From UHGV virus genome UHGV-1364187: a DNA stretch of 64,000 nt; one strand, given 5' to 3'. The stretch's first letter is position 1, and every line of letters begins with the position of its first letter. Positions 5,142 to 47,043 of the stretch are shown here, in pieces. A program made the position numbers and the translations under genes. Under the pieces are notes generated by a model that saw only the letters and a program-made list of their open reading frames with translations, had not been told where the DNA came from and did not search any database. Source of the stretch: a virus.

Positions 5142-5168
5142 ATTCAATTATATAATATATAATTGAAA
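5142..5168 (-). promoter_or_regulatory. conserved AT-rich phage promoter-like motif (copy A)
   Basis: The minus strand reads tttcaattatatattatataattgaa, 25-50 nt upstream of the RBS/ATG at 5118. Confidence 0.45.
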
Positions 5169-5200
5169 TTAGTATTACTCCATTGTTGGAGTAATACTAA
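5169..5200. terminator. hairpin terminator downstream of gene 5205..5945
   Basis: 14-bp stem ttagtattactcca/tggagtaatactaa, then a T6 run. Confidence 0.6.
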
Positions 5201-5204
5201 TTTT

Positions 5205-5945
5205 TTATAACTCATGGTAATGATAATACTTACCATTAAGTTCCCCATTTAATTTAGACAATACATGCAAACTATCCATTTTCATATCAAATAGATAATC
5301 ATCCATACATTCAAGAATTCTGGCTCCTTTAATTTCACATGTTTTATATGTGTCATTAATAAGTGCTATATCACTTATTTTTCTAGCCAACCTCTCTAAT
5401 CTATCTCGATTCCAATCAATGAACTTGTCTCTAAATATAACGACCGCTTCATAATCTTGAGAATCGATATTCCAACCAGAAAGCTGTTCACATGCCATTC
5501 TTCCTTCAGAGAACATATTCATTGCCAATGTATATAGCCTATTGCATTCATTACAATTTGATGCACAATTATCTATACATTCCTGTGCTTCTTGTGCAAA
5601 TTTAATACATGGTTCTTTCCAACAAGATATTGAAAAGGACAAAAAATCTGACGCTAACTTTAATCTCCCCACATTACTAACACCATCCATTGTAATTATC
5701 TGTGCGTTTCTCATATGATGATCAATATTTACATGAACAGGATGTGTAGTTAATGATGGATAAGATTCCTCAACTCCATTTTGTTTAATAGTCTTCATTT
5801 TCTTATTGCAAATAAATGTCACTACAATTGCAATTACAGAAAACATTCCTGCAACAAGTTGGGAAGCAATATCTGTAAAATCTATCATGTTTACGGGTAT
5901 TAGAATAATAAAATTTTGGATTATGAACGGATCTAATACCTCCAC
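5205..5945 (-). CDS. type II membrane protein with a Cys-rich C-terminal domain
   Basis: N-terminal TM helix (IASQLVAGMFSVIAIVVTFIC). Cys cluster CWKEPC...CIDNCASNCNEC. Confidence 0.5.
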   Translation of the reverse strand: MEVLDPFIIQNFIILIPVNMIDFTDIASQLVAGMFSVIAIVVTFICNKKMKTIKQNGVEESYPSLTTHPVHVNIDHHMRNAQIITMDGVSNVGRLKLASDFLSFSISCWKEPCIKFAQEAQECIDNCASNCNECNRLYTLAMNMFSEGRMACEQLSGWNIDSQDYEAVVIFRDKFIDWNRDRLERLARKISDIALINDTYKTCEIKGARILECMDDYLFDMKMDSLHVLSKLNGELNGKYYHYHEL

Positions 5946-6032
5946 ACCCCCTTTAATTACTTGTTACCCATAAAGTTTCAATTTTATATCAATAACTTTA
6001 TATTAAAATATAACATTTGGAGGTATGCTTAA

Positions 6033-6371
6033 ATGATTGAAATTGTTATATCTACAATAATAGTATTAGTATTACTAAATGAATTTAGAAAGATATTAGA
6101 ATATTTATATACAGAAGAAAAATACATAATCGCTAGCACATTAGATTTCCTTAGAGATAATCCAACTGAAATCAGATACACTAAAGGAATACATTATATG
6201 ATTGATTATATAGTAAATAATATAATGATATCTTATTTACCTAATGATATATATAAAACTTCCATACATAAAATTATATTCTCTTGTGTAGTACGTAAAT
6301 ACTTAAAAGATCTTATAAATGATAATATTGCTGAAGTTGTAAAAATTATCGTGGATGAAAAATACAGATAA
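6033..6371 (+). CDS. small membrane protein
   Basis: RBS ggaggt. N-terminal hydrophobic helix IEIVISTIIVLVLL. Confidence 0.45.
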   Translation: MIEIVISTIIVLVLLNEFRKILEYLYTEEKYIIASTLDFLRDNPTEIRYTKGIHYMIDYIVNNIMISYLPNDIYKTSIHKIIFSCVVRKYLKDLINDNIAEVVKIIVDEKYR

Positions 6372-6374
6372 ACC

Positions 6375-7688
6375 CTAATATGGTTTATCTGTAGTTATTC
6401 TGTTTTTATTTAATTCTTCCATTATAATAGTTTGTTCATGTACAAATTCAGTATCTAAATATAAAGCTATATATGTAGTTATACCTTTAAAAGGTTCAGA
6501 ATAAGTTCCAATGCATGTTTCCCAGTCCATAGATACTTGTAGTTCTTTATCTGAATTAAATGTTTTTATATCTATAAACTCTCTAGGACTTATACCAAGT
6601 TTTAATGCTTGTCTTATAAGAGGAGTTACATGAATACTATCAAATAATTCTATAAACGGAATTTTTGGTATCTCATCTTGATCAAATTCTGCATAATCTA
6701 CGTTAAGATAATTATTCCATCCTTTTTCATTTACTGTAGGTATATGTAGTGTAGTTATTTCTCCCACAATAACAGTTTCTTCACTACCTTGAGATAATTT
6801 ATGAATAATCTCATGTTCTGTTCTAGAATAATATGCATACCATCTAGGTGCTGGAATCTTGACTCCTATATTAAAATCTATCATATATGAATCAGATACA
6901 TGATTTTTTGTTTGTCCATCATCAAGACTCATTCTCTCTGTTAGGTCTATATCTATTGAAAAATTTCTCATTCTAACAAAGAATTCATTAATACCATTCG
7001 TGCGTCTAAATTTATATAATATCGGTAATTCTGATTTGGAATTAAGGTATCTTACAAATTTAGCACATTCTGATACATCACCACTTTGTATATTAAATCC
7101 TACATCTTTAGCAAATTGAATCATTACATGTAATGGAATATGGAAATCTAAATCTATCTTGAATCTCCTCTTTGTTCCAATAGGTAATACAACACCAAGT
7201 CTTTCAAATAAATCTACTTGTTTTGATCTAGTATCAACTTTAATTTTTACATTATAATTCAATTCTACTAATTTAAGTCCTAGTGCTAAGAATAAATGTC
7301 TATCATAATCTTTTATGAATGATGTATCTAATCTTCCCATTTGCATTGCTAAATTTACACCAAATCTTACATCATTATGATCATTATTATTGAAATCATA
7401 ATTTATTCTTGGTGTAATAGCAATAGCTGGAGTTGGTTTACTTATAAAATTATAAGATTTATCCATTTTTCTATACTCATCCAATATATGTTTTTCATTA
7501 ATATATACTGTCTTAAAGTAATCTTTTGGTAATCCACTTAATATGAAATCTTTAATATATTCAGTTGCTATTGATTCTGTGTGGATTAATGATGGTGAAG
7601 CCATACTCATATTTAAATTTACTTCTTGTTTCTTTTTTAATATATCTGCAGGATTACATTTCTTTAGATTAGGATTTCTATTAATCAT
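6375..7688 (-). CDS. hypothetical protein (437 aa)
   Basis: RBS aggagtga. No recognisable motifs; I checked for RNAP motifs and found none. Confidence 0.5.
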   Translation of the reverse strand: MINRNPNLKKCNPADILKKKQEVNLNMSMASPSLIHTESIATEYIKDFILSGLPKDYFKTVYINEKHILDEYRKMDKSYNFISKPTPAIAITPRINYDFNNNDHNDVRFGVNLAMQMGRLDTSFIKDYDRHLFLALGLKLVELNYNVKIKVDTRSKQVDLFERLGVVLPIGTKRRFKIDLDFHIPLHVMIQFAKDVGFNIQSGDVSECAKFVRYLNSKSELPILYKFRRTNGINEFFVRMRNFSIDIDLTERMSLDDGQTKNHVSDSYMIDFNIGVKIPAPRWYAYYSRTEHEIIHKLSQGSEETVIVGEITTLHIPTVNEKGWNNYLNVDYAEFDQDEIPKIPFIELFDSIHVTPLIRQALKLGISPREFIDIKTFNSDKELQVSMDWETCIGTYSEPFKGITTYIALYLDTEFVHEQTIIMEELNKNRITTDKPY

Positions 7689-7758: not shown

Positions 7759-8109
7759 TTAGAAGTGTTTCTGTTCTTTTATTCTCTTAATCTTCTCTAA
7801 TTGTTCTTGAGAATAGTTCTTTCTAGATAATCCAATAAGTGTATTAATATTAATAATAGTATCTCTTGAGTGGTTCATTGCTTTATTAAACATACCATTA
7901 TTTCTAGAGATATATAATGCATTTCTTGGATTAAGAACTTTAAATGCTTCTTCATAGAATGCTTTGTTATTAATTAGGAATATAGATAACGTATCACCAT
8001 CAAAATCTGCAGCCATAGTCTTTAAGATCTGTAATGGTAATGCCATTGTATATGTGTCTAATATTCCTACTACATGCATTTGTAAAATACTTCCATATGA
8101 AATTGTAGG
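7759..8109 (-). CDS. rpoC: multisubunit RNAP beta-prime N-terminal fragment, exon 2 (catalytic NADFDGD loop)
   Basis: PTISYGSILQMHVVGILDTYTMALPLQILKTMAADFDGDTLSIF...LNPRNALYISRNNG aligns with E. coli beta-prime APTLHRLGIQAFEP...AAYNADFDGDQMAVH...STNNILSPANGEP. The frame is open upstream as far as a stop codon at 8137..8139. Confidence 0.8.
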   Translation of the reverse strand, partial: PTISYGSILQMHVVGILDTYTMALPLQILKTMAADFDGDTLSIFLINNKAFYEEAFKVLNPRNALYISRNNGMFNKAMNHSRDTIININTLIGLSRKNYSQEQLEKIKRIKEQKHF

Positions 8110-8600
8110 CTCCGTCTTCACATAGAGTCGTGACTTCTATGCAGTTCTCTTATGAACTTCTATGAGTATTACTCATAAGGAGAGACTATATCTTCATCTT
8201 TTACTATTCTTATATTATTTCAAATATAAGATACTACTAGCAGTCAGATGCCTTGCACTTCGGATATACTATATCCTACTCTACTCACTTCGTCTATATC
8301 TAATTTATTAGATATACCTTATTTTTAACTAGATTACTAGTATATTAGCTTTCGATAGTCGTTGAACCTTCTCCTATATAATTTATATAAGAGCTTGGCT
8401 GCTGATTGGACATTGTTTGTTACTTGGCACGATACTTAGGCTCTCACCATATATCATCTTAATGATTATTTCTGTCTTTCGACTGCCATTCACGCTTACC
8501 TGTTACAGTTACGTTGTAGCTCATTAAGCATTAGCCCTTCCCAGACAAGTTCACAAGGTTTTTCTCCGTACATTTCTGTAGGGAGGACCCATCCACAAAT
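8110..8600 (-). ncRNA. group I self-splicing intron (491 nt, no ORF) inside the beta-prime gene
   Basis: The 5' exon ends in U (..AAU CGA CCU) and the intron ends in G (..GACGGAG). The intron 5' end (AUUUGUGGAUGGGUC) contains GGGUC, which can pair with the exon end GACCU to form P1 with a U.G wobble. An R-like element (GACUAUCGAAAG) lies near 8345-8360 and an S-like element (GAAGAUAUAGUCUC) near 8178-8190 on the minus strand. The upstream ORF reads through for 34 unrelated codons to a stop. The spliced junction restores the conserved ILINRP|PTISYG (E. coli LLNRAPTLHRLG). Confidence 0.75.
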
Positions 8601-9761
8601 AGGTCGATTTATTAAAATAGGTATACCTTGACCGTCATCTATTAAAGATTGAATAATATTTCTAACTCTTTGGTCTTCTTGAATAGTGGCATAATACCAA
8701 ATATTATGTGCTTCATCATAAGACATATTATAAGATTTTACTAAAACATTTATAATTCTCTGTTCTAATAATCCTACTAATGCAAAGTATGATAATTTTA
8801 CTTGGTCTACTTTTAATGTATCATCTGGAATGATTACACATCTAGAAGAGAAGTTAAATCTTCCTCCGAATACTCCTCTAAATATACCTTTCTTTCCAGA
8901 TAATATATTTTCAACTTCAGCATAAACTTTATTAAGTTTATATTGTAAATCGTATAATAATTGTAATTTAGGTTTCTTCTTTCTATGAATACGTAATGTA
9001 TTCATATTGATATCATGAACTAATTTTACAATCATATTATACAATCCATTAATATCGTTGAATACAAAGTTTCCACCATCAAGTTTGAATGGTCTTAATA
9101 GTGTCGTAAATATTGGTATAGAATGAGTAAATATCTTATCTTTATTCTCTAACAAATCAAGATAAGTATCAGTCTTAGCTTTCTTATTAGAAGAATTATT
9201 GTAATAATAATCTAAAACTGTTTCAAAGTTATCTCTTAACCATAATATACCTTTTCCTTTATATGGTTCATCTTTAACTTGTTTATTTTCTTCTATTGTA
9301 AATCCATCTTCATTCTTATTGTCTATTGGTTTTATGATATTATAAAGTTTCTCTGTTCCAATAATAGTCTCTAATTCTTTATATAGATTAGGATGGATTA
9401 TACAATATTCATCTTTCAATACTGTCCAACCAAATAAGTCATAATTATCATCAACAAACTTTACTTTAGTATTACATATAGGACATGTCATGCCATTATT
9501 AATTTTACCCATAGTGTAACCACATGAACATTTATATTTGTTAATGAACGGGTTAGAGTCATTTAATGTAGAACCAAATCTAGTACTAAAAATACCATTT
9601 GGTTCTTTTAAATCCTTCTTAATGTTTTGATGTTGAAAGATAATGAACCCGTTACCAGTACGAAGATCATTATCTTTCTCTTTATCCAAGTCAATTCTTT
9701 CTAGTAATGTTTCAACTTTAAATAAATTTCCAAGTTCATCTACAAGATGTGGATAATTCAT
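8601..9761 (-). CDS. rpoC: multisubunit RNAP beta-prime N-terminal fragment, exon 1 (Zn ribbon, clamp, lid)
   Basis: The Zn-binding motif CSCGY...CPIC matches the beta-prime N-terminal CxCGK..CxxC. IPIFTTLLRP matches LPVLPPDLRP, and GKKGIFRGVFGGRFNFSSRCVI matches [23 protein letters not shown]. RBS gaaggagatg. Confidence 0.8.
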
Positions 9762-9827
9762 ATTTATATCATCTCCTTCAATAATATAATATATAAGTTA
9801 ATAATAAGTTACATATACATTAATTTT

Positions 9828-10301
9828 CTAATGTATATGTAACTTATTATATTTATATTTATATTCTATAGACTTAGAATCTCTTTCTTGCTTCTTTTCT
9901 ATCCACTCTTGAACTTTATCTTTTATTTTATACTTGTTCACTAAACAACAGATTACATTATATGTGTCATTCATTGAATAGAAAAACCTAGATTTATAAT
10001 TATTATACAAATAAGATTTACTAACAAGTTGTTGAAATCTTGATAAATTATAAATACACTGTTTAAGACTATATTCACGTCTTGATATTCTTATTCTCGC
10101 TTTCTTTTCGATTTTATGTCTAAGTCTATATAAACATGTGTAAACATCACATATTTCTTCAGAAAGATGATATATATCAATTTCTTGTTCAGATAAGCAA
10201 TTTATCAATTCTGATAACTCTTCTTGCATCTTCATAAAAATAAAATCATCACCACTCATATCAGTGATACTATGTTGTAATTTTGTATCTATTAAAAACA
10301 T
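9828..10301 (-). CDS. hypothetical protein (157 aa)
   Basis: ORF immediately downstream of 10304..11236; probably co-transcribed with it. Confidence 0.45.
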   Translation of the reverse strand: MFLIDTKLQHSITDMSGDDFIFMKMQEELSELINCLSEQEIDIYHLSEEICDVYTCLYRLRHKIEKKARIRISRREYSLKQCIYNLSRFQQLVSKSYLYNNYKSRFFYSMNDTYNVICCLVNKYKIKDKVQEWIEKKQERDSKSIEYKYKYNKLHIH

Positions 10302-11236: not shown

Positions 11237-11274
11237 TATAATACACTCTCCTTTAGTATTATTAAATATATACT

Positions 11275-11298
11275 CACATATATAATATATAATCAAAA
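11275..11298 (-). promoter_or_regulatory. conserved AT-rich phage promoter-like motif (copy E)
   Basis: The minus strand reads tttgattatatattatatatgtgagt, about 40 nt upstream of the ATG at 11236. Confidence 0.45.
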
Positions 11299-12725: not shown

Positions 12726-12750
12726 TATAAACTAGGAACACCCTAGTTTA
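12726..12750 (-). terminator. hairpin plus T-run overlapping the stop codon of the beta-prime middle fragment
   Basis: Stem aaactagg/cctagttt followed by atatttatttttt on the minus strand. Confidence 0.5.
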
Positions 12751-13978
12751 TATTTAATATTCCAAATGCATCATTTAACATATCAGTAATGTCAGTAGTT
12801 TTAACAACACTATTATGAAACGCTTTTAAGCTTCTTTGTTTGGTTGTTGAAGCGATTTTGCTCATAGCCATACCTATATGGGCTATACCTATTCTTCTAA
12901 ATAGACTACTACCACATACCTCACATATATCTTCACCTTCACATAATGCAGCGAATCTAAGATTAACAGTTTTATCTATAAATTGATTCTTTGTATCTGA
13001 AGTAATTTCAATTACTTTATCTCCTTGTTGGACAAAACAATACATATATTGTTTAATATTCTTCTTTGTTAATTTAACTCTAATTGTACGTTTCGTTTTA
13101 CAATCACTTCCCTTAGGAGAAATAGAAATATGTTGAAATCCACTGAATAATAATTTCTCCCAATATCCACCAATTTGAGTTTTGATAGCTCTCGCTGTTG
13201 CTCCAGGTGCAATAGAGTTAGCAAATATATGATAATCCTCTTTAGATATACCATCCATATAACATGATGTAGCTATATCATATTTACCTGTTACGTTATT
13301 ATATACAGCACCTTTCATCATACACATATTCTTTAAGTTATTTTCAATATTACCTCTGGCTTTACAATCAAAGATTTCCATCGCATCATCATCTTTTAAT
13401 ATTTCTTTTGTTTGTGCTATTAATTGATTAGAAATATCTTCTGCTACAACTTCATCACCATCTTCAAGAGCTTTCTTATTCTCTTTAATAAGTTTAGTCT
13501 TTAATGGCTTAAGTTTATCTGATAAAGATAATATAGCATCATCATAATGAGCTGCTAATACTGTAGTTAATCTCATTAGTATTTGTGACTTTAATAAGAA
13601 ATGTTTTAATGCATCTAATGGTACTTTATCTTCCAATCTAGCATATGTAATATCAGATACAATATCATTAAATACATCATCATCTACAGAATAATTTATA
13701 TACTTTTCTAATTCAAATAGTTCTTTCTCTATACATAGTCTATTAAATATCCATAACCCTACAGTAGTTGTAAATTCATTCTTATTTCTCTTTCCTTCAG
13801 GACCATAAGAATTTGGTGGAATTTTAATATAATTAAATGGTTCAAATCTTCTTTTATTGTTAAACTTTCCAAGTAATTCTATAATAAGACTTATAGTTAA
13901 ATCTTTTTCTTCTAAAGATAATAGATAATCTATATCTTCTTGTTTTGTTATAAACACACCATCTTTTACTTTAGGCAT
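12743..13978 (-). CDS. rpoC: multisubunit RNAP beta-prime middle fragment (funnel, bridge helix, trigger-loop helices); ends inside the trigger loop
   Basis: TTVGLWIF matches [28 protein letters not shown] matches [57 protein letters not shown] matches the bridge helix [53 protein letters not shown] matches trigger-loop helix 1 (IGEPGTQLTMRTFH), and [10 protein letters not shown] matches trigger-loop helix 2 (DITGGLPRVAELFEAR). The start is taken at MPKVK, which follows aaaggaga. Confidence 0.75.
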   Translation of the reverse strand: [411 protein letters not shown]

Positions 13979-14524: not shown

Positions 14525-15300
14525 TTTTAAACAACTCCTTTAATATTATTATTGTATTATTTACACTATTATAATATATAAGTGAAATATTAGACTTTTA
14601 CATAATATAATAACACACTAAGTCACATAGGGGATGAGCTTAGTGTGTTATTAATTTGGTAGATTGATGGTTAAGCAAGCAAAGTGGATTGTTTGCTAAA
14701 AAAATAGTGTTTTTTTGGAGTAAGACAATATTTGATATTACTTTGTATTTTGGGATTTGACTTAAGACAAATACTTGTCTCAAATATATGTTATTATATT
14801 TTAAAAGTTTAATATCCACCATAGATTTTACTCTATGGTGGATATACACACAAAAAAGGAAAGAAGAAAAAGAAAAAAAGTTTTAATATGGTTTACTAAT
14901 ATGTTATATTGTATAAAAAGATAAAAACCTATACTATTATAGTATAGGTTTTTACAAATAAATTTAAAAGGAGATTGCTTAATACAAAAAGACTTATATC
15001 CCGATGGATTATATATATATGTTTATAATAAAAAAATAAGATAAGCCATAATAGCTTATCTTATTTTTCAAAAGAATTGTAGAGTTAAAAAAACAGCTAA
15101 TTTAATATATAAAGGATTATTTATATGTTTATTAAAATTTAAACCTTAATAATCTCAGCTTGTATTATCATATTTTTATCTTCAGAATAATATATAATTA
15201 AAAAATTAGACCATACTATAAAAAGTATGGTCTAATTTAATATGTTTAGAACATTAATATAATAAAATAACGAAAAAATAAACTATAACCAGTAGAGTTC
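14525..15300. other. 776-bp non-coding region containing at least five perfect hairpins
   Basis: Hairpins at 14611-14650, 14812-14845, 14924-14953, 15035-15065 and 15205-15236, several flanked by T-runs on both strands. No convincing ORF; the ORF at 14640..14849 is low-complexity and looks spurious. Confidence 0.5.
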
Positions 15301-24490: not shown

Positions 24491-24514
24491 TCATATATAT
24501 AATATATAATTAAA
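24491..24514 (-). promoter_or_regulatory. conserved AT-rich phage promoter-like motif (copy B)
   Basis: The minus strand reads tttaattatatattatatatatgaga, about 30 nt upstream of the ATG at 24460. Confidence 0.45.
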
Positions 24515-24574
24515 ATAATTAATGCTCAATGAAAAATAGAGCATTAATATTTCCTATAAGTATAAGTTATGAGG

Positions 24575-26538: not shown

Positions 26539-26563
26539 TCATATATATAATATATAATTGAAA
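26539..26563 (-). promoter_or_regulatory. conserved AT-rich phage promoter-like motif (copy C)
   Basis: The minus strand reads tttcaattatatattatatatatgaaaaggagg, directly upstream of the rnh ATG at 26520. A hairpin at 26566-26592 follows on the plus side. Confidence 0.5.
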
Positions 26564-28298: not shown

Positions 28299-28323
28299 TC
28301 ATATATATAATATATAATTGAAA
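28299..28323 (-). promoter_or_regulatory. conserved AT-rich phage promoter-like motif (copy D)
   Basis: The minus strand reads tttcaattatatattatatatatgaag. It lies just downstream (on minus) of a 16-bp-stem hairpin at 28329-28364 that terminates gene 28442..29560. Confidence 0.45.
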
Positions 28324-30665: not shown

Positions 30666-30690
30666 TTTCGATTATATATTATAAATATGA
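30666..30690 (+). promoter_or_regulatory. conserved AT-rich phage promoter-like motif (copy F, plus orientation)
   Basis: tttcgattatatattataaatatga, about 48 nt upstream of the ATG at 30739. Confidence 0.45.
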
Positions 30691-33145: not shown

Positions 33146-33176
33146 AGGGTTCCTAGTCAACGCCTTTAAAAGCCCC
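33146..33176. repeat. GC-rich 31-bp direct repeat, copy 2
   Basis: Identical to copy 1, 351 bp away. The interval between them is AT-rich and carries GATATAGATATC-family palindromes, including a 17-bp inverted repeat at about 33040-33095. Confidence 0.8.
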
Positions 33177-33282
33177 TTAGTATTTTGTTAGAACTTTAAT
33201 AAAATTTAAATATGGACAGTATATGAATAGTATAAAATATACTAAATATAAGGAGGAATTGAATATGAATATTATTTAATCA

Positions 33283-33957: not shown

Positions 33958-34093
33958 TATAAAAGAGTACATTGTACTCTTTTATTTTTTGTCTATATAC
34001 GTTAGTATTGAACTTATATTTTTCTGTAAACAAAATCTTAATCAATTATATATTATATATATGAATATAATAATATTGAAAGGAGATTGTATT

Positions 34094-35686: not shown

Positions 35687-38600
35687 TTACATTTGGTCTA
35701 AATATTTCCATTTAATTCCCGCTAAATCTTTTGCATGTCTGTCTAATTCTATCATAGCTTTATTAATAGCACCAACAATAATAGGTGCTCCTGTCATACG
35801 TGCTAATGTAGATGCAACACATAATATAGTATGGATTTTTTCATCTGGTCTATATGATGATGTTGGTTCTTTTCCTTTTTCTAATACAGTTCTACATACA
35901 CCCTTTACAGCAGAATAATCTACAATTTTATCACCAACTGCTAATTTGTCTTCATATTCTAGATATATCTCTATAAGAATTCCGCTTTCAATATTTTTAA
36001 GTTTTCCAACAACAGGCAATGCTTCTGTAGATTCTAATCCATAAATATAATCTATTCCATATTTCTTTTGAGCAGACTTTATTTTTTTAATAGGTTTTTC
36101 AATTTCAGTTACAAACTTCTTAAGAGAATCTGATAGTTCATCTATTTCACATGTTCTATATACTTTGATATCACTTATGATACCATTAGCTTTAGCTTTA
36201 ATTGTAAATCTTCCAAGATCAGATACAAGTTCGACATCTCCAGATAAAGATTTCATTAAAGCATTAACATCTTCTTCATCATATGCGTCTTGAAATACTA
36301 ATAATGTATCTCCTTCTTGCACATAATCCCCTTTCTTTACAATATCTAATAATATAGCATTTTTATCCATAGATACATCTTTCTTAACGTCTATATATGA
36401 CGTTAATGCATCTGATAAATATTCTGAAACGATTGTACTATCTTCAAATCCTTCTTCTGTAGACATAATAGCTACTTTAGTTAATAATCCCATTGAGTAT
36501 GTAAGATTATCATTAGCACCATAAGCATGGTCAAAACTAAATTTATCATAGGCTATAATATCATTAGCTTTGAATTTATCTCCAACTTTTAGTTCTGTAC
36601 TAAGTTGTAATGTGATATAGAATCCACCATCTGAATTTTTTCTAATATTGTTTCTTAAATCTATAAAATCATGAGTTCCATCAGAATAAGTTACAATCAT
36701 ATAGTCATCTGTAATAGTCTCAACTGTACCATTCTTTTTAGCTTTAAATGCAAAGTTATTTGTTACCATATATGGTAAAGCTTGATCTGCACCGTTTGTA
36801 ATTAAAGATGGGAATGATATTTTTGTTGGTAATTGATGTTTTGATGTTTGGATAAAGTCCATTGCTGAACGCATAGCATCATTACGTGTTACACCATATG
36901 GAGTTAATGCTTCTTGGATAGAAAATGAACTAGTAATATTCATATCATCTCTATTTTTAGTGGTTTTAATATACCCCCTAATAGTATCAACATTCATATT
37001 TATTGTAGCCTGCCTTACAATACCAGAGTTACCAGCGAAGTTTGTAGCACATGCTAATATATTAATCATAGAAGGATCATATGAACGTTTATCAGCTTTA
37101 TATGCTCTATCTGCATTCATACCAGAATGACCTTTAGTTGATAATGCATTAATAGCTTCTAACTCTCCAATAGGAGTAGTATATGAGTAATCACCAGCAG
37201 TATTAGCCATTAATACTTCATCTATTACTGCAGATTGTTTCATTGATATAGTGGCATTCTTAAATCCTTTTTTAATTTTATTTTTATAATCATTATAAGC
37301 ATATGCCAATTCCTTATAAGCATAAGCTGCCACTATTTCATTACTACGATATCTATATGCATCCATGTTAGTATGATTACTATACTGTGTTGATGCTAGT
37401 AAATCATTTGCATATAACAATATGTCTGTAAATTCTGTAGGTAATCCGTAATGAATCAATGATTGCAATGTGATATAATCAATCATACAATCATAGAAGT
37501 TTTCTATACCATCAGATAATTTAGCTCTAGGACCATAATTATCTAAGATTTCTATCCACATAGATTTTGAATCTATATCTCCAATAGAATATATTTCTGT
37601 AGTGACATCTTTAATTCCATTTAGTAATAGATTTGAACTGTTAGTACATTCAAAAACTATATATCCATCTGAAAATCTTATAAAATCTGCATTATCTGCT
37701 TTTTTGTCACTTTGATCAAGTTTTTCTTTTATAGTATATTTAATATTAGCTTTTTTAAGCATTTCAGTTAAACCAATTTGATAGCATATGATGATAGCTA
37801 GTGGAATTTGAGTATTAAGAATACTAGCTCTAGAATAAATATACTTCTTACCTTTAGTTGTATTATTGTATAATTCTCTAAGTTCATTATCGTCTCCAAT
37901 TAATAAGTCCAATATTTTATTAGGGACATCTGGAAATGAACTATAGATAACTTCTTTAGACGTTTTGTGATATGCAATAGGAATTTTTCCTTGTGGAACT
38001 TTCTCTATATTATATTTAGTTCTAATCTCTTTTTGATTAAGATATACTATAACATCTTTAGTTTCTAACTTATTGTACTGAGAAGCTAAATATTCATATG
38101 TATATGGTACATCATAAATATTATTAGCTAATGTACAATCTCCTATAGTAGATTTTATCTTATCTGTTTTGTTTATAGTTTTTATCAATCTGTCAGTAAC
38201 AGAATCTGATTTTTGTCCATATCTTTTAATGAAGATTTTATTGTAGTTTGATACAATTTGAACAGTATCTGGGTCTGTTTTTGATATTGGTAACAATAAT
38301 AATTGACCATTAATAGTCTTATCATTACCTTTAATAATAAGAAACTTATTATCTTTAAACTTAGGTACGTCGAATTTAAATTGAAATCTTTTACCGAACG
38401 AATCTTCGCAAAATACAGTATATGTATCTTTATAATCTTCTGACGTTGATGAATCTTCAATTTTTATATCTCTTACTGCAACAGGATAAGATGATTTTGT
38501 AAGAAGTTCTGTAATACAGTTAATTATATCTTTATTTACATCATAATCGTTTTCGATATTCATATATTTTAGATTAGACCATTCCTCTTCATTTACAGTG

Positions 38601-40024
38601 TCAATTCTTGTTGATAAATTAGTTGATGTGAGTTCTTTATCAGTATCAGGACCAAGAATATCATCTAGTTTAATATTGTTTATTTCTTTTTGTCTTAGTT
38701 CTTTATTAAGATTTTCTAAACGGTCTAATCGTTGTTTGCTTATTTTACCACTATTATCTTGCTCAGCTGCCATTTTCAATATTAATTCTTTAAACTCTGG
38801 ATCGTTCTCTAATTCTTCCATAGTAGCTTCTATATCTGAAGATTTTTCTGCAGCATTTTCAATTCTATTTAATAATTCTTTTTCATCTATAGAACCATCT
38901 TCTCCAGTAAGAGAATTGATCTTGATTTTAGCCTTACCAGTTTCTAGTTTAGATAGAATAGCCATTACAATAGATTTTGTTGATGAATTATTATTAGCCA
39001 TGCTATCTTGTTCTTCTGGTGGAATTGGCAAATTGTTTTCAATGATATTAATAAACTTATTAAATTTGATATAAGTTTCATTGTTGATATCATCTACTAC
39101 TAATTTGAATTGAGTATTACCATTAGTAAATACAAATTCTTCACCAGATAGAAGTTCTTTAATCTTATCTGGATTTCTTCTTAATAATCTTGAGAATAAT
39201 GATATAGGATTGATATTTTTCATATCTAATGTAGAATTCACACCTTCTGGAAGATTCCTATACCAACCATCAACAGGTATATATGACACTTTATTATATG
39301 AATCAAATCTTTCATCTTTAATAAATCTATGAAGTAGTTCTAAGTATAGATATATACCTTTCATATTACTCATATAATTATTTTTAAAGAAATTTTCATT
39401 ATAATAAAAGAAGTCTACATACATATTACGTCTTCTATATTTGTCCATATAAAGATATGCGTATTTGATAGATTTACATTCTTTCTTAATCTTATCATAT
39501 ACCAATACTACATCTTTTGGTGTTTTAAATCTTTCTCTATATAGTAATTGTTTTAAGATTTTATTGTATTTTGAAGATGATAGAATATTACTATTATCTT
39601 CTGCTTCTAGTAAAGAATTTAGTTTATCATTGTTAATGATTGTAATGCTAGATTCATCCATAATATAATCAATTCCAAATTCATTCATAGCTTCTAGTAA
39701 ACCTTCTTTAGTTTGAGTATATAGATATCTATGTTTCTCTACATCTAATACCGTTTCGTTGATTATACTATCTTCTTCTAATATAATATCATCACTGTTT
39801 GATAAGAATGATTCTTGAGATATAATAAACGAAATATCTTTCTCAATATAATATGAGTCATATTGTTTATTACAATCTTTTGTATTGATAATCTTTATAG
39901 ATTCATCAATATTTGGTGTTATTAAAAACATAATACTATCTTTGAGTTTATTTTTCGTATTGAACGGAAAATAAACAGGTTTATTGTATAATTTCATATT
40001 CTTTAAATCTTTATATAAAATCAT
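35687..40024 (-). CDS. rpoB: multisubunit RNAP beta subunit, N-terminal fragment (lacks the C-terminal ~250 aa), with a ~170-aa charged low-complexity insertion
   Basis: [19 protein letters not shown]...[22 protein letters not shown] matches E. coli beta GDKMAGRHGNKGVISKI...[36 protein letters not shown] matches [32 protein letters not shown] matches RVCPIETPEGPNIGLI. The ORF ends about 35 aa after the GDK/KGV motif, so the GGQRFGEMEVWALE region is absent. RBS taggaggt. Confidence 0.7.
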   Translation of the reverse strand: [1445 protein letters not shown]

Positions 40025-40124
40025 ATATAATACCTCCTAATCTTATTAATATGGATTATTTAAGTGTTACATAACTTAATAATAAAGGAAAATACATATA
40101 TTTTTTACAAAGGAGGAGTTCAAT

Positions 40125-43055: not shown

Positions 43056-43919
43056 ATGGAAGAATTTAAAAGTGTAATTAAAAGAAATGGTAAAATTGTA
43101 GATTACGATAGAAATAAGATTAAAACTGTTGTTAGAAATAGTGGTCTTACAGATGAAGATAAATTAGAAGAATTTACATTGGAAGTTGAAAAACGACTAC
43201 TAATAGAAAATGAATCAGTTGATCATCAAGGTATATTTGATGTTGAACTAATTCAAGATATTATCATCCATCTGTTAGGACTATTAGGATATAAAAACGA
43301 ACAAAATGAGTATAAGAGATATAAGAAAGAACGAGAAAAGATTAGACAGTCTAAATCTGATTTATTAAAAGTGGTTCATTCATTAGGTGTTGAAACTGAT
43401 AGAGACAATGGGAATGTTGGTAATAACTTCAGTGCCAAGTTATTACGTATTGCTAGCGAAACAAATAAATGTACGAATCTAGCATTAAATATTCCTAAGC
43501 ATTTAGCGAAACCTCATGAAAATCATGATTACCATACTCATGATCTAGATAGTTATAATCTTACTACAAATTGTTTACATAATGACACTGGTGCTATATT
43601 AAAGAGAGGATTTAATACTGGATATGGGTGGATTAAACCACCTAAAAGAATCGAATCAGCTGCCAACCTTACATGTATTATTATTCAATCACTTCAGAAT
43701 GATTTTTATGGTGGGCAATCTTGTGTTGATATTGATAATGACCTTGGTGAATATGTAGAACCAACAAGACAAGAAATTATTGAAAGATTAGAACCTACAA
43801 GAAAATATGTACCAGAAGATGTATTCAATGATACAGTTGAAAGAATGTTAGATGAACAAATTCATCAAGCAGCACAGAATATTTGTTATAATCTTAATAC
43901 TATGCATAGTAGAGCAGGT
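43056..43919 (+). CDS. nrdD: anaerobic ribonucleoside-triphosphate reductase NrdD, exon 1 (ATP-cone and N-terminal barrel); 3' boundary +/- 6 nt
   Basis: RBS aaggaggaatt. ATP-cone MEEFKSVIKRNGKIVDYDRNKIKTVV. The exon ends ..NTMHSRAG(Q), matching E. coli ..NTLHTANGQ. Confidence 0.8.
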
Positions 43920-45077
43920 CAAGATGACTTAGCCGTGTTAGATAGAAATATCTAATATGATTATCGGGGAAATTCGGTAGAGGTCTAAGTAAGATTATCA
44001 ATTAAAAAGAAATGATGATATTTATGAATTATAATAAAACTGAAATTGAAAGATTATATTTTGAAGAAAATATGACATATGATCAAATATCTGAAATTGT
44101 AGGATGTTGTAAATCTACTATAGGAAATATTATTAGATCAAATCCAAACTATAAAAAGAAATCACAAACACTATATAGTAATCCATTATTAGATGAAAAT
44201 TATTTTGAAATAATAGATACAGAAGCAAAAGCTTATATATTGGGACTTATGATAACAGACGGGAATGTTTGTTATTATGGTGATGGATATCGTATTAGAT
44301 TACAATTAAAATATGAAGATTCTTATATTTTAGAATTCTTTAAAAATCAGATTCACTGTTCCAATAAACTTATTGTTGATAAGCGAGATGGTTCTATTGC
44401 ATTTAGTATAAAATCAGAAAAGATGTTTTATGATTTATCTAAATATGGAGTAGTTCCTAATAAAACTTTAAATAATTATGTTCCACCAAATATACATCCA
44501 ATGCTAATGCCTCATTTAATAAGAGGAATATTTGATGGTGATGGTTGGATATCAAAATCGTTTGATAAAAATGGAAAGAAACATATAGCTATTGGTATTT
44601 GTGGAAATGAAAATTTTCTTCAACAATTCAGGATATATTAGTAATAAATGCTCGAGTAAATATGAATATTATAAATTCTTATAGCTCAATTAATGAAGCT
44701 CCATTATACCAAACAATGTGGTGTTCTATTGGAGATATTATTAGATTATATAGTTATTTATACATAGGTGCTAATATATATCTATTTAGAAAATATCATA
44801 CTATAATTGATATAATTTTATATGAAAATACCGAGAGGGCTTTAATCGAAAGTCTTTGTAACGCATAGGAGTTGAACGTTATGATAGTAAAAATACTCCC
44901 AAGAGTCTCCGACACAATATACTATAGGTATATTTGAGGTGGAAATTGCTCACCACCAAACCTAACGTTAAACGAGGGTGAATATATATGCTAGGCTGGA
45001 TTGGAAATGACCAATCGATGAAAATGAGGGAAACCTCCAGAGGTCTAGATAAAAAGCTAGACGTTAATAACAGTCCG
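43920..45077 (+). ncRNA. group I intron 1 in nrdD (~1.16 kb), carrying a LAGLIDADG homing-endonuclease ORF
   Basis: It interrupts conserved HSRAGQ|VPFSS. A heptamer GGTCAAG is shared at both exon ends, so the exact junction is ambiguous. R-like CCGAGAGGGC..AUCGAAAG and UCCGACAC elements resemble those of intron 2. Confidence 0.7.
44012..44641 (+). CDS. intron-encoded LAGLIDADG homing endonuclease (double-motif)
   Basis: Motif 1 AYILGLMITDGNV and motif 2 LIRGIFDGDGWI. Located wholly inside nrdD intron 1. Confidence 0.8.
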   Translation: MMIFMNYNKTEIERLYFEENMTYDQISEIVGCCKSTIGNIIRSNPNYKKKSQTLYSNPLLDENYFEIIDTEAKAYILGLMITDGNVCYYGDGYRIRLQLKYEDSYILEFFKNQIHCSNKLIVDKRDGSIAFSIKSEKMFYDLSKYGVVPNKTLNNYVPPNIHPMLMPHLIRGIFDGDGWISKSFDKNGKKHIAIGICGNENFLQQFRIY

Positions 45078-45380
45078 AGTCAAGTTCCATTTAGTAGTTT
45101 AAATATTGGACTTCCTAAAAATAAAAATGGTGCTAGAGTATGTATGGCATTATTAGAAGAATACGATAAAGGTATGGGAAAAGGAGAACAAATGATTTTT
45201 CCTAATATTATCTTTAGATGTAAAAAAGGTATTAACAAAAATCCTAATGATCCATATTATTATTTATATGATAAAGCTTGTGATGTAGCAAGTAGACATA
45301 TGAATCCAACATTTATGAATATTGATAGTAAAATTAATATGGAGTTATGGAAAAAAGGTATTACACCTGCAATCATGGGT
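45078..45380 (+). CDS. nrdD: NrdD exon 2
   Basis: VPFSSLNIGLPKN..ARVCMALLEEY..IFPNIIF..AIMG. It ends AIMG|, completing the E. coli TPMG|CRSFLG junction. Confidence 0.75.
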
Positions 45381-45689
45381 TAACAGAAAATGTTACACGG
45401 TTTCTACAGCTCATGTAAAACCTATCTAAACAGGGAAAGCTCATAAGAGTCAATCCTGTGCTAAATTCTAATATTATATAGAATATATAATTATTTATAC
45501 ATTGTATATAGTACTAGATAAATGCCGAGAGACTATCGAAAGACTATTTTATATAGAATCAAGTAGAGTAGGATACAAGTGTATTCGAAAAGATAGGCTT
45601 AGATATTTATATTATCTATGAAGATATAGTCCGACACCTATAGTGATATAGGAAAGATTATGGAAACGATAATCTTATAACAAGAAATG
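45381..45689 (+). ncRNA. group I intron 2 in nrdD (309 nt, no ORF)
   Basis: The 5' exon ends AUGGGU (U at the splice site). The IGS GCUCAU at ~45410 pairs with AUGGGU (P1 with U.G). The R element is GCCGAGAGACUAUCGAAAG and the S element UGAAGAUAUAGUCCGACAC. The intron ends ..AAAUG (omega G), and the next exon begins UGU (Cys of MGCRTYVG). Confidence 0.8.
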
Positions 45690-46649
45690 TGTAGAACATA
45701 TGTAGGTACAAATATCAATGGTCAAGAAGGACCATCTAGAAGAGGAAATAATGCACCTGTTACTATTAATTTACCTAGATTAGGTATTAAAGCTAAAGGT
45801 GATTTAAATAAATTCTGGAGTTTATTAGATGATATGCTTAATTTATGTAAAGAATCTTTATTACATAGACATAGTATATTATGTAAACTTAGAGTAAAAG
45901 ATTTACCATTTGCTGCAGGAGAAGGTATTATGATGGGTTCAGAAAATCTTGGACCTGATGATACTATCGAACCAATTCTTAAGAACGGAACATATGGAAT
46001 TGGATTTGTAGGTTTAGCTGAAACATTAGTAGCATTAATTGGTAAACATCATGGTGAATCTAAAGAAGCTGACGAATTAGGATATAAAATTGTAAGTCAC
46101 ATTAGAGAATATTGTGATAAAACTAAAGAAGAGACACATCTTAATTTCTCATGTTACTATTCACCTGCTGAAAGTACAGCTGGAACATTTGCAAATGCAG
46201 ATAGAGAAAAATATGGTATTATTAAAGGAGTTACTGACCATGATTTCTATACAAATTCTGTTCATATTCCAGTGTATTATAATATCTCTATTAAAGATAA
46301 GATTGATATTGAATCTAAATATCATTATTTAGGAAATGGTGGTCATATCTTTTATGTGGAAGTTGATGGATATCCATCTAAAGAACAAATTAAGAAAATT
46401 GTAGATTATGCGTTTGATCAAAGTGATATTAGTTATATGGGAATTAATTTCCATATTAGATATTGTAAAAAATGTGGTAAACGTGTAACGAATAATGTTA
46501 TGGTATGTGATTGTGGAAGTACAGCTTTCCAAGGTATTAGTCGTATTACTGGATATTTAGCCCTAGATGGAAGATGGGGTCAAGGAAAAGTTGCAGAAAG
46601 AAAAATGAGAGTATCGCATACTACAGGTAAAAATGTATATACAGAATAA
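45690..46649 (+). CDS. nrdD: NrdD exon 3 (C-terminal half, with Zn ribbon and glycyl-radical loop)
   Basis: CRTYVG..NNAPVTINLPRLGIKAKGDLNKFWSLLDD matches E. coli CRSFLG..NNLGVISLNLPRIALEAKGDEATFWKLLDE. Also GVTDHDFYTNS, CKKCG..CDCGS, and the glycyl-radical motif RITGYL. Confidence 0.85.
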   Translation, partial: CRTYVGTNINGQEGPSRRGNNAPVTINLPRLGIKAKGDLNKFWSLLDDMLNLCKESLLHRHSILCKLRVKDLPFAAGEGIMMGSENLGPDDTIEPILKNGTYGIGFVGLAETLVALIGKHHGESKEADELGYKIVSHIREYCDKTKEETHLNFSCYYSPAESTAGTFANADREKYGIIKGVTDHDFYTNSVHIPVYYNISIKDKIDIESKYHYLGNGGHIFYVEVDGYPSKEQIKKIVDYAFDQSDISYMGINFHIRYCKKCGKRVTNNVMVCDCGSTAFQGISRITGYLALDGRWGQGKVAERKMRVSHTTGKNVYTE

Positions 46650-46654
46650 CAAAT

Positions 46655-46683
46655 AAGAAAGAGATCATTAAGATCTCTTTCTT
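46655..46683 (+). terminator. rho-independent terminator after nrdD
   Basis: 12-bp stem aagaaagagatc/gatctctttctt, then taattttt. Confidence 0.65.
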
Positions 46684-46709
46684 TAATTTTTATAAGGGGG
46701 TAAAATATA

Positions 46710-47000
46710 ATGCCTAATGTGTTTGTTGTATATAGTTATAATACATATAGAATGTATACATTATTAATATTACCAATAAAACATACTAGCAAATATAGAA
46801 TTGTAAATCTTACAAATTTATATGTATCATCTTGTACATTTGATAGTATAGAAGATGCTATATGTGATATATTTAGATATCAGTATAATAAGAAGAATAA
46901 AGTTATAACTAGTGGATTATATTATAATATAGTAAAATTAATATGTTCACTTAGTAAAGGAAAGTTTATATTGAATAATGAAAAAGAGATATGGTACTAA
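46710..47000 (+). CDS. hypothetical protein (96 aa)
   Basis: RBS aagggggtaaaat. Confidence 0.4.
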   Translation: MPNVFVVYSYNTYRMYTLLILPIKHTSKYRIVNLTNLYVSSCTFDSIEDAICDIFRYQYNKKNKVITSGLYYNIVKLICSLSKGKFILNNEKEIWY

Positions 47001-47016
47001 TCATATCTCTAAACAT

Positions 47017-47043
47017 TTTTTCAATCATATATTATATATATGA
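47017..47043 (+). promoter_or_regulatory. conserved AT-rich phage promoter-like motif (copy G)
   Basis: ttttcaatcatatattatatatatgaa, 30 nt upstream of the ATG at 47073. Confidence 0.45.

What the first reader, a model, noticed from the sequence alone, without database searches (positions are those of the whole stretch)
5142..47043. Recurrent, partly palindromic 25-nt AT-rich motif TTTcaATTATATATTATATATATGA upstream of at least seven genes: candidate phage promoter
Near-identical copies, in the coding orientation, sit upstream of these ATGs: 5118(-), 11236(-), 24460(-), 26520(-, rnh), 30739(+, Bro-N) and 47073(+). A seventh copy (copy D, 28299-28323, minus) has no ATG within 100 nt, only a hairpin terminator and then the 27891 gene about 400 nt downstream. 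A degenerate copy precedes the beta-prime gene at 9761. The core is an inverted repeat, CAATTATATA-TATATAATTG-like. The conserved TATG near the 3' end is reminiscent of the short AT-rich promoters used by phage-encoded multisubunit RNAPs, which I recall only approximately. Given the RNAP genes in this window, these are probably promoters for a phage-encoded RNAP class rather than host sigma-70 sites; no TTGACA-17-TATAAT geometry is evident.
Basis: partly seen in the sequence, partly recalled or inferred. Interest (0 to 1): 0.65.

Follow-up and report, generated by a model that had tools for sequence, protein, structure and literature searches.

The report
Jumbo-phage virion-polymerase early promoters
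The repeated AT-rich 25-base motif is real, and it is almost certainly the early-gene promoter read by the RNA polymerase that this uncultured giant phage carries in its particle; it is the same promoter type already mapped experimentally in Bacillus phage AR9, so it is a clear but ordinary example of a known kind.

Summary
The 25-mer has 8 copies at up to 3 mismatches, with 0 expected by chance. Its core, TTATATATTAT-N6-G, has 10 exact copies plus one copy with 1 mismatch (0.33 exact copies expected). All 11 sites lie in the 9% of the window that is non-coding, and all point towards the next gene.

The window is 64 kb of a 256.5-kb metagenomic contig. It comes from an uncultured jumbo phage distantly related (about 30% amino-acid identity) to AR9/PBS1, phiR1-37, Listeria LPJP1 and the Staphylococcus jumbo phages. 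It encodes homologues of both virion and non-virion multisubunit RNA polymerase subunits.

The motif matches AR9's experimentally mapped early (virion RNAP) promoter, AAATATATATTAT-(6N)-G(+1), at 12 of 13 core positions with the G at the same spacing. A weight matrix built only from AR9's annotated early promoters recovers these same 11 sites as its top forward-strand hits.

- The orthologues of AR9 early genes (nvRNAP beta'-N, RNase H) carry the motif.
- The orthologues of AR9 late genes (vRNAP subunits, virion proteins) lack it. Most of them carry AR9-type late AACA-N6-TA boxes instead.

The class needs refining to early/vRNAP rather than the phiKZ late 'TATG' type. This is a new member of a known kind and of modest interest.

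The parts
5144..5168 (-). Early-promoter copy 1 (TTTCAATTATATATTATATAATTGA). Predicted +1 is G at 5145, with a 28-nt leader to the small ORF 5016-5117 and then 4811-5032 and 3649-4809. It is the only copy that is a perfect palindrome.
   Evidence: (23.0 bits with the AR9-derived matrix)
9778..9802 (-). Degenerate copy (AACTTATATATTAT-ATTATT-G). Predicted +1 is 9779, 18 nt before the ATG of the non-virion RNAP beta'-N gene.
   Evidence: (14.5 bits). The AR9 orthologue g270 has a mapped early TSS.
11274..11298 (-). Copy 2. Predicted +1 is 11275, with a 39-nt leader to 10304-11236 and then the MazG-like gene 9828-10301.
14563..14587 (-). Degenerate copy (TTTCACTTATATATTAT-AATAGT-G). Predicted +1 is 14564, with a 40-nt leader to 14069-14524.
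   Evidence: (18.8 bits)
15179..15203 (-). Degenerate orphan copy (TTTTAATTATATATTAT-TCTGAA-G). Predicted +1 is 15180. No ORF follows; the predicted product is an RNA of about 150 nt ending at the hairpin 15068-15032.
   Evidence: (17.4 bits)
24491..24515 (-). Copy 3. Predicted +1 is 24492, with a 32-nt leader to 23657-24460, the first gene of a run of unknown genes on the same strand.
26539..26563 (-). Copy 4, an exact consensus. Predicted +1 is 26540, with a 20-nt leader to the RNase H gene 25783-26520.
   Evidence: 23.3 bits; phrog_531; PF00075. AR9 RNase H g241 has a mapped early TSS.
28299..28323 (-). Copy D, an exact consensus and an orphan. Predicted +1 is 28300. The predicted product is an RNA of about 145 nt without an SD-led ORF, ending at the terminator 28185-28156. 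If read through, it would be antisense to the Zn-ribbon ORF 27968-28150(+).
30666..30690 (+). Copy 5, in a divergent gap. Predicted +1 is 30689, with a 50-nt leader to the Bro-N/anti-repressor-like gene 30739-31425.
34040..34064 (+). Predicted +1 is 34063, with a 31-nt leader to 34094-34390. A late-type AACA-N6-TA box lies just upstream at 34029-34040.
   Evidence: (22.0 bits)
47019..47043 (+). Copy 6 (core TCATATATTAT, 1 mismatch). Predicted +1 is 47042, with a 31-nt leader to 47073-47405 and then the NrdG-like activase gene 47405-48235.
   Evidence: (20.4 bits)
35687..40024 (-). Virion RNAP beta-like subunit gene, part of the enzyme proposed to read the motif. It has no early motif upstream; an AACA-N6-TA box lies at 40057-40068.
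   Evidence: (AR9 g189)
12743..13978 (-). Virion RNAP beta'-like subunit gene (AR9 g264 homologue, 32% identity over 400 aa). It has no early motif upstream, and no AACA-N6-TA box was found upstream either.
   Evidence: g264 is late in AR9
7759..9761 (-). Non-virion RNAP beta'-N gene. It is apparently split by a 416-nt ORF-less insert at 8080-8495. It is an early gene whose product goes on to transcribe late genes.
   Evidence: uninterrupted homologues are about 500 aa
11295..11340 (-). Example of the terminator-like hairpins that abut the motif. The others are at 15203-15238, 26569-26595, 28327-28366, 9802-9849, about 5169-5203, about 24516-24550 and about 47000-47030.
   Evidence: 8 of 11 sites, dG -12 to -25 kcal/mol

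Best explanation
The motif is the early promoter of an uncultured AR9/PBS1-like jumbo phage. It is recognised by the phage's virion-packaged multisubunit RNA polymerase (vRNAP).

Proposed mechanism:
1. The vRNAP is built from split beta/beta'-like subunits. Two of these are encoded in the window, at 35687-40024 and 12743-13978.
2. The vRNAP enters the cell with the DNA and binds the AT-rich core (C)AATTATATATTAT at about -20 to -7.
3. It starts transcription at the conserved G six bases downstream of the core.
4. The early transcripts have short leaders of 18-50 nt and strong Shine-Dalgarno sites. They encode non-structural genes: the non-virion RNAP beta'-N subunit, RNase H, a Bro-N/Ant-like protein, an NrdG-like activase, a MazG-like protein and many genes of unknown function.
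5. The non-virion RNAP then transcribes the virion and vRNAP genes from a second, AR9-like class of promoter, AACA-N6-TA.
6. Most copies sit directly behind an intrinsic-terminator hairpin. Each early unit is therefore insulated from the unit upstream.

Shown here: the motif, its statistics, its placement and orientation, its identity to AR9's mapped promoters, the homology of the RNAP genes, and the early/late split.

Inferred: the actual start site, the polymerase that uses the motif, and the timing of expression.
For: Motif statistics and placement:
- There are 8 full copies against 0 expected and 10 exact cores against 0.33 expected.
- All 11 sites are non-coding (9.3% of the window) and co-oriented with the next gene.
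- The two copies in or next to the window that lie in divergent gaps also face their genes. No copy lies in a convergent gap.

Match to AR9:
- AR9's early consensus from dRNA-seq and primer extension is AAATATATATTAT-(6N)-G+1. Its transcription does not need protein synthesis (PMC5312081).
- The motif here matches that consensus at 12 of 13 core positions, with the G at the same spacing.
- AR9's own first promoter reads tttttcAATTATATATTATaaagatG.
- A matrix built only from 32 early promoters annotated in the AR9 record scores the 11 sites at 13.8-23.3 bits, against 18-28 bits for AR9's own sites. In all, 17 hits exceed 13.5 bits against 0.91 in shuffles, and 9 exceed 17 bits against 0.08.

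Gene content:
- The window encodes homologues of AR9 vRNAP g189 and g264 and of nvRNAP g270.
- The orthologues of AR9 g270 and g241, which have mapped early TSSs, carry the motif.
- The orthologues of the AR9 late genes g242, g259, g260, g261, g264 and g189 lack an adjacent early motif. All but the g264 orthologue (no box) and the g260 orthologue (CA in place of TA) have an AACA-N6-TA box 16-36 nt before the ATG.

Conservation in relatives:
- The same core lies upstream of the nvRNAP beta'-N orthologues in relatives with 44-62% identity.
- The exact 22-mer occurs in two IMG/VR jumbo-phage contigs.
- TATATATTAT-N5-TG occurs at several sites in Listeria phage LPJP1 that appear from the record's gene coordinates to be intergenic; this placement was judged by eye.
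- A published review states that every RNAP-encoding jumbo phage has such an AT-rich early motif centred near -10 (PMC7598289).

Against host RNAP: sigma-70-like sites are not enriched.
Against: - There are no transcript data for this phage. The start site, the timing and the polymerase are all inferred by analogy.
- The copy in front of the nvRNAP beta'-N gene is degenerate (14.5 bits). AR9's vRNAP is reported to be intolerant of some single-base changes, so weak copies may not fire.
- Two copies (15180 and 28300) are not followed by a gene.
- Most downstream genes have no known function, so the label 'early-type' rests on only a few genes.
- Only 64 kb (plus 10 kb) of the 256-kb genome was scanned.
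Confidence: 0.85

Rival explanations
1. The motif is a promoter for the non-virion RNAP (a middle or late class), as the TATG at its 3' end might suggest by analogy with phiKZ late promoters.
For: TATG, with G as the start, is the phiKZ late (nvRNAP) consensus. Six of the 11 sites end in TATG, and two more in TGTG or TTG.
Against: - phiKZ late promoters show no upstream conservation, whereas these sites have a 13-20 nt conserved upstream core identical to AR9's vRNAP class.
- The phage's virion and vRNAP genes mostly carry a different, AR9-late-type AACA-N6-TA box.
- One copy precedes an nvRNAP subunit gene, which must be expressed before nvRNAP exists.
- In the motif, positions -11 to -8 read ATTA, not AACA.
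Confidence: 0.05
2. The motif is a host sigma-A/sigma-70 promoter, with an AT-rich -10 region, used by host RNAP early in infection.
For: - The motif contains TATATT/TATTAT hexamers.
- In the IMG/VR relatives a TTGTAA box lies 17 nt upstream of TATATA, which looks like a weak -35/-10 pair.
Against: - In the window nothing is conserved at -35.
- Sigma-70-like sites are no more frequent than in shuffles.
- Conservation runs well beyond a -10 hexamer and includes a fixed G.
- The same element in AR9 is used independently of host RNAP and of new protein synthesis.
Confidence: 0.04
3. The motif is chiefly a protein-binding or recombination element rather than a promoter. It could be a palindromic operator for a phage regulator. 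Alternatively, hairpin plus motif could form a recombinogenic cassette like the T4 PeSL elements.
For: - The consensus is an imperfect palindrome (9 of 11 pairs), and copy 1 is perfect.
- Eight of the 11 copies abut a hairpin, the same layout as T4 PeSLs (PMC2839356 and PMC4122927, titles and abstracts).
- Two copies have no gene behind them.
Against: - The motif is strongly directional. Forward scores are 31-36 bits and reverse scores 14-21 bits, and all sites face a gene.
- The palindrome is lost in the degenerate copies and in AR9, where N6 is variable.
- Flanks and hairpins share no sequence, so the copies are not duplicated cassettes.
- A PeSL-like role would add to promoter function rather than replace it.
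Confidence: 0.04

Closest known systems
Early (virion RNAP) promoters of Bacillus phage AR9/PBS1: AAATATATATTAT-(6N)-G+1 (Lavysh et al. 2017, PMC5312081)
   Same: - The core matches at 12 of 13 positions.
- The spacing to the conserved G is the same, as are the T at -1 and the frequent A at +2. The TTTC just upstream is also seen in several AR9 promoters.
- Placement is the same: in front of the nvRNAP beta'-N and RNase H genes and of many small genes of unknown function.
- Both are absent from virion genes, and both are paired with a second AACA-N6-TA late class.
   Different: - The host phage is only about 30% identical in its RNAP subunits and comes from a metagenome.
- Position 3 of the core is T, not A.
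- In the strong copies the N6 is itself conserved (ATATAT, giving TATG at the start), so the conserved block is 25 nt rather than 13+1.
- Eight of the 11 copies abut a terminator hairpin, against 5 of 31 in AR9.
- There is no experimental start-site mapping here.
AT-rich vRNAP early promoters of phiKZ-related phages in general (phiKZ, phiR1-37; review PMC7598289)
   Same: Both have a highly conserved AT-rich element of about 10 nt centred near -10, a start site about 6 nt downstream, and use by an injected multisubunit RNAP.
   Different: The consensus differs from phage to phage according to the review. The match here is specifically to the AR9 version.
phiKZ late promoters (TATG, read by nvRNAP)
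   Same: TATG with G as the presumed start is present in the strong copies.
   Different: phiKZ late promoters have no conserved upstream element and serve late genes. These sites have a long conserved upstream core and serve non-structural genes.
T4-type PeSL cassettes (promoter-early stem-loop; PMC2839356, PMC4122927)
   Same: Both are composites of a terminator-like stem-loop immediately followed by an early promoter, repeated between early gene modules.
   Different: PeSL promoters are read by host sigma-70 RNAP. A role for the elements here in modular shuffling was not tested. The resemblance is in layout only.

Membership tests
AR9-type virion-RNAP early promoter | Conserved AT-rich 13-nt core AAATATATATTAT | tested here: met
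   The consensus AATTATATATTAT matches at 12 of 13 positions. The AR9-only matrix scores the 11 sites at 13.8-23.3 bits; 17 hits exceed 13.5 bits against 0.91 in shuffles.
AR9-type virion-RNAP early promoter | Conserved G exactly 6 nt downstream of the core | tested here: met
   All 11 sites have G at that position. TTATATATTAT-N6-G occurs 10 times against 0.33 expected.
AR9-type virion-RNAP early promoter | That G is the transcription start | not testable with these tools
   This needs dRNA-seq, 5'-RACE or primer extension on infected cells.
AR9-type virion-RNAP early promoter | Located upstream of early (non-structural) operons, including nvRNAP subunit genes, and absent before virion genes | tested here: met
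   The motif lies before the nvRNAP beta'-N, RNase H, Bro-N, NrdG-operon and MazG-operon genes. It is absent before the vRNAP beta and beta' genes, the g259- and g260-like virion genes and the tape-measure gene.
AR9-type virion-RNAP early promoter | The genome encodes a split beta/beta'-like virion RNAP | tested here: met
   Homologues of AR9 g189 and g264, both annotated as virion RNAP subunits, are present. Presence of the proteins in particles cannot be tested.
AR9-type virion-RNAP early promoter | Transcription independent of host RNAP and of new protein synthesis | not testable with these tools
   This needs rifampicin and chloramphenicol experiments.
Bacterial sigma-70/sigma-A promoter | TTGACA-like -35 box 16-18 nt upstream of a TATAAT-like -10 box | tested here: not met
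   There is no conserved -35 box in the flanks. Sigma-70-like sites number 168 against 184 expected and 177 against 188 expected.
phiKZ late (nvRNAP) promoter | TATG at the start, no upstream conservation, placed in front of late genes | tested here: not met
   TATG is present in 6 of 11 sites. However, the upstream core is strongly conserved and the downstream genes are non-structural.
AR9 late (nvRNAP) promoter | AACA at -11 to -8, then 6N, then TA/G | tested here: not met
   The motif reads ATTA at -11 to -8. Separate AACA-N6-TA sites precede most of the late genes.
N4-type vRNAP hairpin promoter | The promoter forms a small stable DNA hairpin that the polymerase recognises (feature recalled from memory, not checked against a paper here) | tested here: not met
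   Only copy 1 folds significantly better than shuffles (-6.7 kcal/mol, z = -5.3). Two other copies are marginal (z about -2) and the remaining eight do not differ from shuffles.
T4 PeSL cassette | Stem-loop immediately followed by an early promoter, and mediating modular shuffling | tested here: inconclusive
   The layout is met in 8 of 11 sites. Recombination or shuffling at these sites was not tested. The polymerase involved differs.

The most novel reading that the evidence does not exclude
The tight pairing of a terminator hairpin with a vRNAP promoter (8 of 11 sites) may be more than insulation. These could be portable regulatory cassettes that drive modular gene shuffling in this large uncultured clade of jumbo phages, as PeSLs do in T4-type phages. 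In addition, the two orphan copies (15180 and 28300) could produce early small RNAs of about 150 nt. One of these would lie next to, or antisense to, a late Zn-ribbon gene. Both ideas would add a regulatory layer not described for AR9-like phages.
Probability: 0.15. Interest if true: 0.5.

Novelty: new member of a known kind. Interest (0 to 1): 0.25.

Why it matters
The result gives a ready-made map of early promoters, and with the AACA boxes a provisional early/late transcription map, for a member of a large uncultured clade of jumbo phages. The clade has 546 metagenomic homologues of one RNAP subunit, and its hosts are probably anaerobic Firmicutes.

The result also shows that the vRNAP promoter core is almost unchanged between phages whose polymerase subunits share only about 30% identity. 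That constrains where the still-unknown promoter-recognition determinant of the virion RNAP can lie. It also means that a single AR9-derived matrix can be used to annotate early genes across this group.

It does not reveal a new mechanism.

Tried and rejected
- Near-identity search of 12 kb against 50,697 phage records found no match, so the phage is not in that collection.
- The search for related loci with the single beta'-N protein confirmed no locus.
- Rfam at gathering thresholds and a tRNA scan of the whole window found nothing, so the orphan-copy transcripts match no known RNA family.
- BLASTP of the conserved 437-aa ORF 6375-7688 against AR9 gp226 (the nvRNAP promoter-specificity subunit) showed no significant similarity.
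- Pfam and PHROG scans of about 25 genes downstream of the motif gave mostly no hits.
- An exact look-up of the first window protein found no record, so the left flank could not be extended.
- Recognition of the motif itself as a hairpin or cruciform was rejected, because only one copy folds significantly.
- The idea that the copies are duplicated cassettes or a mobile element was rejected, because similarity stops at the 25-mer and the hairpins are all different.
- A host sigma-70 promoter reading was rejected.
- The AR9-matrix hits at 11094(+) and 28997(+) lie antisense inside genes and are weak. They were treated as chance.

Full report
**Observation**

The 25-mer TTTCAATTATATATTATATATATGA occurs 8 times at up to 3 mismatches in a 64-kb window of 27% G+C. 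None of 100 dinucleotide-preserving shuffles gave a single match.

What all the sites share is the core TTATATATTAT followed six bases later by G. It has 10 exact matches against 0.33 expected, plus the 47025 copy with one mismatch.

I called 68 genes with a simple codon-usage and Shine-Dalgarno (SD) scorer. They cover 90.7% of the window. All 11 sites fall in the remaining 9.3%, and all 11 point towards the next gene on their strand. No site lies in a convergent gap. The site in the divergent gap 30603-30738 faces its gene.

Nine sites have a predicted leader of 18-50 nt ending in a strong AAGGAGG-type SD and an ATG.
- The first ATG is at 5117, not 5118.
- Copy D does have ATGs close by, but none with an SD.

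**What the window is**

The window has no close match among 50,697 phage records. At the protein level:
- The 1445-aa ORF 35687-40024(-) is a homologue of the virion RNAP beta subunit of AR9/PBS1, phiR1-37, Listeria LPJP1 and the Staphylococcus jumbo phages, at about 30% identity.
- ORF 8496-9761(-) is the non-virion RNAP beta'-N subunit, the AR9 g270 homologue.
- A local tblastn of all 68 proteins against the AR9 genome added the vRNAP beta' piece g264 (12743-13978), the virion proteins g259 and g260, the tape-measure protein g204, g205 and RusA (AR9 annotation).

An exact-protein look-up places the window on a 256,505-bp ENA metagenomic contig. The beta'-N protein has 546 metagenomic homologues, many on contigs of 210-257 kb. 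The window therefore belongs to a large uncultured clade of AR9-like jumbo phages. The split NrdD gene and the NrdG-like gene, together with the strong SD sequences, suggest an anaerobic Firmicute host. This is an inference.

**Identity of the motif**

In AR9, dRNA-seq and primer extension mapped 41 early promoters with the consensus AAATATATATTAT-(6N)-G+1. They are active without protein synthesis and are therefore assigned to the injected virion RNAP (PMC5312081).

The window consensus reads cAATTATATATTAT-ATATAT-G. It matches at 12 of 13 core positions, with the G at the same spacing. I extracted the early promoters annotated in the AR9 GenBank record. Several of them carry the same TTTC just upstream, and the first one reads tttttcAATTATATATTATaaagatG.

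As an independent test, I built a weight matrix from 32 AR9 promoters only and scanned the window.
- The 11 sites are the top forward-strand hits, at 13.8-23.3 bits. AR9's own sites score 18-28 bits.
- Of the other hits above 13.5 bits, five are reverse-strand echoes of the partly palindromic strong copies and one is a weak antisense site inside a gene.
- In 100 shuffles, 0.91 hits exceeded 13.5 bits against 17 observed, and 0.08 exceeded 17 bits against 9 observed.

**Early/late split**

AR9's supplementary tables give mapped early start sites for g270 (nvRNAP beta'-N) and g241 (RNase H). They give late AACA-type start sites and late expression for g242, g259, g260, g261 and g264. The window follows the same split.
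- The beta'-N and RNase H genes (phrog_531, PF00075) carry the motif.
- The orthologues of the late genes, and the vRNAP beta gene, do not have it directly upstream.
- Most of these late-gene orthologues have an AACA-N6-TA box 16-36 nt before the ATG. That is AR9's late (nvRNAP) consensus.
- Two are exceptions. The g264 orthologue 12743-13978 has no AACA box upstream, and the g260 orthologue 16188-18644 has CA in place of TA.

AACA-N6-T[AG] is common by chance in such AT-rich DNA. There are 148 hits in all, of which 26 are intergenic against about 14 expected. This second class is therefore supported mainly by its position before late genes, not by counts.

Other genes behind the early motif are a Bro-N/Ant-like protein, an NrdG-like activase, a MazG-like protein and many genes of unknown function. 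That is typical of phage early regions.

**Conservation elsewhere**

- The exact 22-mer CAATTATATATTATATATATGA occurs in two IMG/VR jumbo-phage contigs (245 and 155 kb, 33-35% G+C). These share almost no DNA similarity with the window.
- Upstream of the beta'-N orthologues in relatives at 62%, 52% and 44% identity, the core persists: gggTATATATTAT-aattat-G, aatCATATATTAT-agatat-G and ttgCATATTAT-attttt-G.
- The 10 kb beyond the right end of the window holds a twelfth copy, again intergenic and co-oriented.
- Listeria phage LPJP1 has TATATATTAT-N5-TG at several sites. From the record's gene coordinates they appear intergenic, though I judged this by eye.
- A review states that every RNAP-encoding jumbo phage has such an AT-rich early motif near -10 (PMC7598289).

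**Rivals**

*Host sigma-70/sigma-A promoters.* Nothing is conserved at -35, and sigma-70-like sites are not enriched (168 against 184 expected; 177 against 188 expected).

*An nvRNAP (phiKZ-late-like) reading of the TATG.* This is unlikely for three reasons. The conserved upstream core belongs to the vRNAP class. The late genes use AACA boxes. One copy serves an nvRNAP subunit gene.

*A palindromic operator, or hairpin recognition.* The consensus pairs at 9 of 11 positions. However, only copy 1 forms a hairpin that is significantly more stable than shuffles. Two others are marginal and the rest do not differ. The motif is also strongly directional, at 31-36 bits forward against 14-21 bits reverse, and AR9's N6 is variable.

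*Duplicated or mobile cassettes.* Similarity ends at the 25-mer, and the adjoining hairpins all differ in sequence.

**Differences from AR9**

- In the strong copies the N6 is itself conserved (ATATAT). The conserved block is therefore 25 nt and ends in TATG.
- Eight of the 11 sites sit within about 12 nt of a strong terminator-like hairpin (dG -12 to -25 kcal/mol; 4% of random 54-mers reach -12). In AR9 the figure is 5 of 31. This terminator-then-promoter layout resembles the PeSL cassettes of T4-type phages (PMC2839356 and PMC4122927), but only in layout.
- Two copies are orphans. The copy at 28300 would give an RNA of about 145 nt ending at the terminator 28185-28156 (z = -4.0). The copy at 15180 would give an RNA of about 150 nt ending at 15068-15032 (z = -3.0). 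Much of the z-score comes from the terminators. Neither RNA matches an Rfam family.

**Verdict**

The class is refined to AR9-type early promoters read by the virion RNAP, with the G of TATG as the predicted start. This is a new member of a known kind. It is useful for annotating this uncultured clade and as evidence that vRNAP promoter specificity is deeply conserved, but it is not a new mechanism. The start sites, the timing and the polymerase assignment remain inferences by homology until transcripts are mapped.

Noticed in passing
window 7759-9761 (-), gap 8080-8495: The nvRNAP beta'-N gene appears to be split. ORF 8496-9761 (421 aa) is followed by a 416-nt ORF-less gap and then ORF 7759-8079, which matches the C-terminal end of the PHROG 'RNA polymerase beta subunit' families. 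Uninterrupted homologues are about 500 aa. This is probably an ORF-less group I intron, although Rfam gave no hit at gathering score. An IMG/VR relative shares 86% identity over 79 nt at 8114-8192.
   Followed up: partly
window 43056-46649 (+): The anaerobic ribonucleotide reductase NrdD gene is in three pieces: 43056-43955, 44988-45383 and 45687-46649, covering profile positions 4-294, 289-381 and 393-714. An endonuclease ORF (44024-44641) lies in the first gap. This suggests two introns, one of them carrying a homing endonuclease.
   Followed up: partly
window 14525-15300 (-): This 776-nt non-coding stretch follows the orphan early copy. It holds four successive units, each an AACATAT... late-type box followed about 60-100 nt later by a strong hairpin (hairpins at 15068-15032, 14954-14922, 14845-14812 and 14653-14608). 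They may be a tandem set of short late transcripts.
   Followed up: partly
window 32576-33282: This 707-nt non-coding region is rich in GATATAGATATC-type inverted and direct repeats. It also has a 46-nt direct repeat (32780-32825 and 33131-33176, 89% identical) containing AGGGTTCCTAGTCAACGCCTTTAAAAGCCCC. It could be an origin-like region or a non-coding RNA region.
   Followed up: no
window 48295-48328 and 48497-48530 (+): A 34-nt repeat (85% identical) begins with the palindrome GTAATAGTTTATTAC. It lies just upstream of two small genes (48343-48483 and 48563-49069), and the first copy contains a late-type AACA-N6-TA box. A related box, TTGTAATAGTT, lies about 10 nt upstream of the early motif in the IMG/VR relatives (L001-L006). 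It may be an operator or an upstream promoter element.
   Followed up: no
L001, L002, L006 (IMG/VR contigs 3300045988_083767 and _077597): In these relatives the identical early motif is followed by a conserved leader of about 100 nt with two hairpins (ataaaggataatgatatttcctttat... and gtcctatgatcctgg...atcatagg) in front of different genes. This suggests a shared regulatory element in the 5' UTR.
   Followed up: no
window 27968-28150 (+): A small Zn-ribbon ORF (60 aa, two CxxC pairs) has its own late-type AACA box. It lies on the strand opposite the copy-D transcript and shares the bidirectional terminator at 28156-28185.
   Followed up: partly
window 31877-32013 and 32219-32355 (+): A 137-nt direct repeat (79% identical) shows that the adjacent small early genes 31871-32200 and 32213-32575 are paralogues.
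   Followed up: no
window 6375-7688 (-): A 437-aa ORF of unknown function lies directly downstream of the nvRNAP beta'-N gene. ORFs of similar size (430 and 429 aa) occupy the same position in relatives L015 and L016, though their sequences were not compared. It has no Pfam or PHROG hit and no BLASTP similarity to AR9 gp226. It remains a positional candidate for an nvRNAP accessory subunit.
   Followed up: partly
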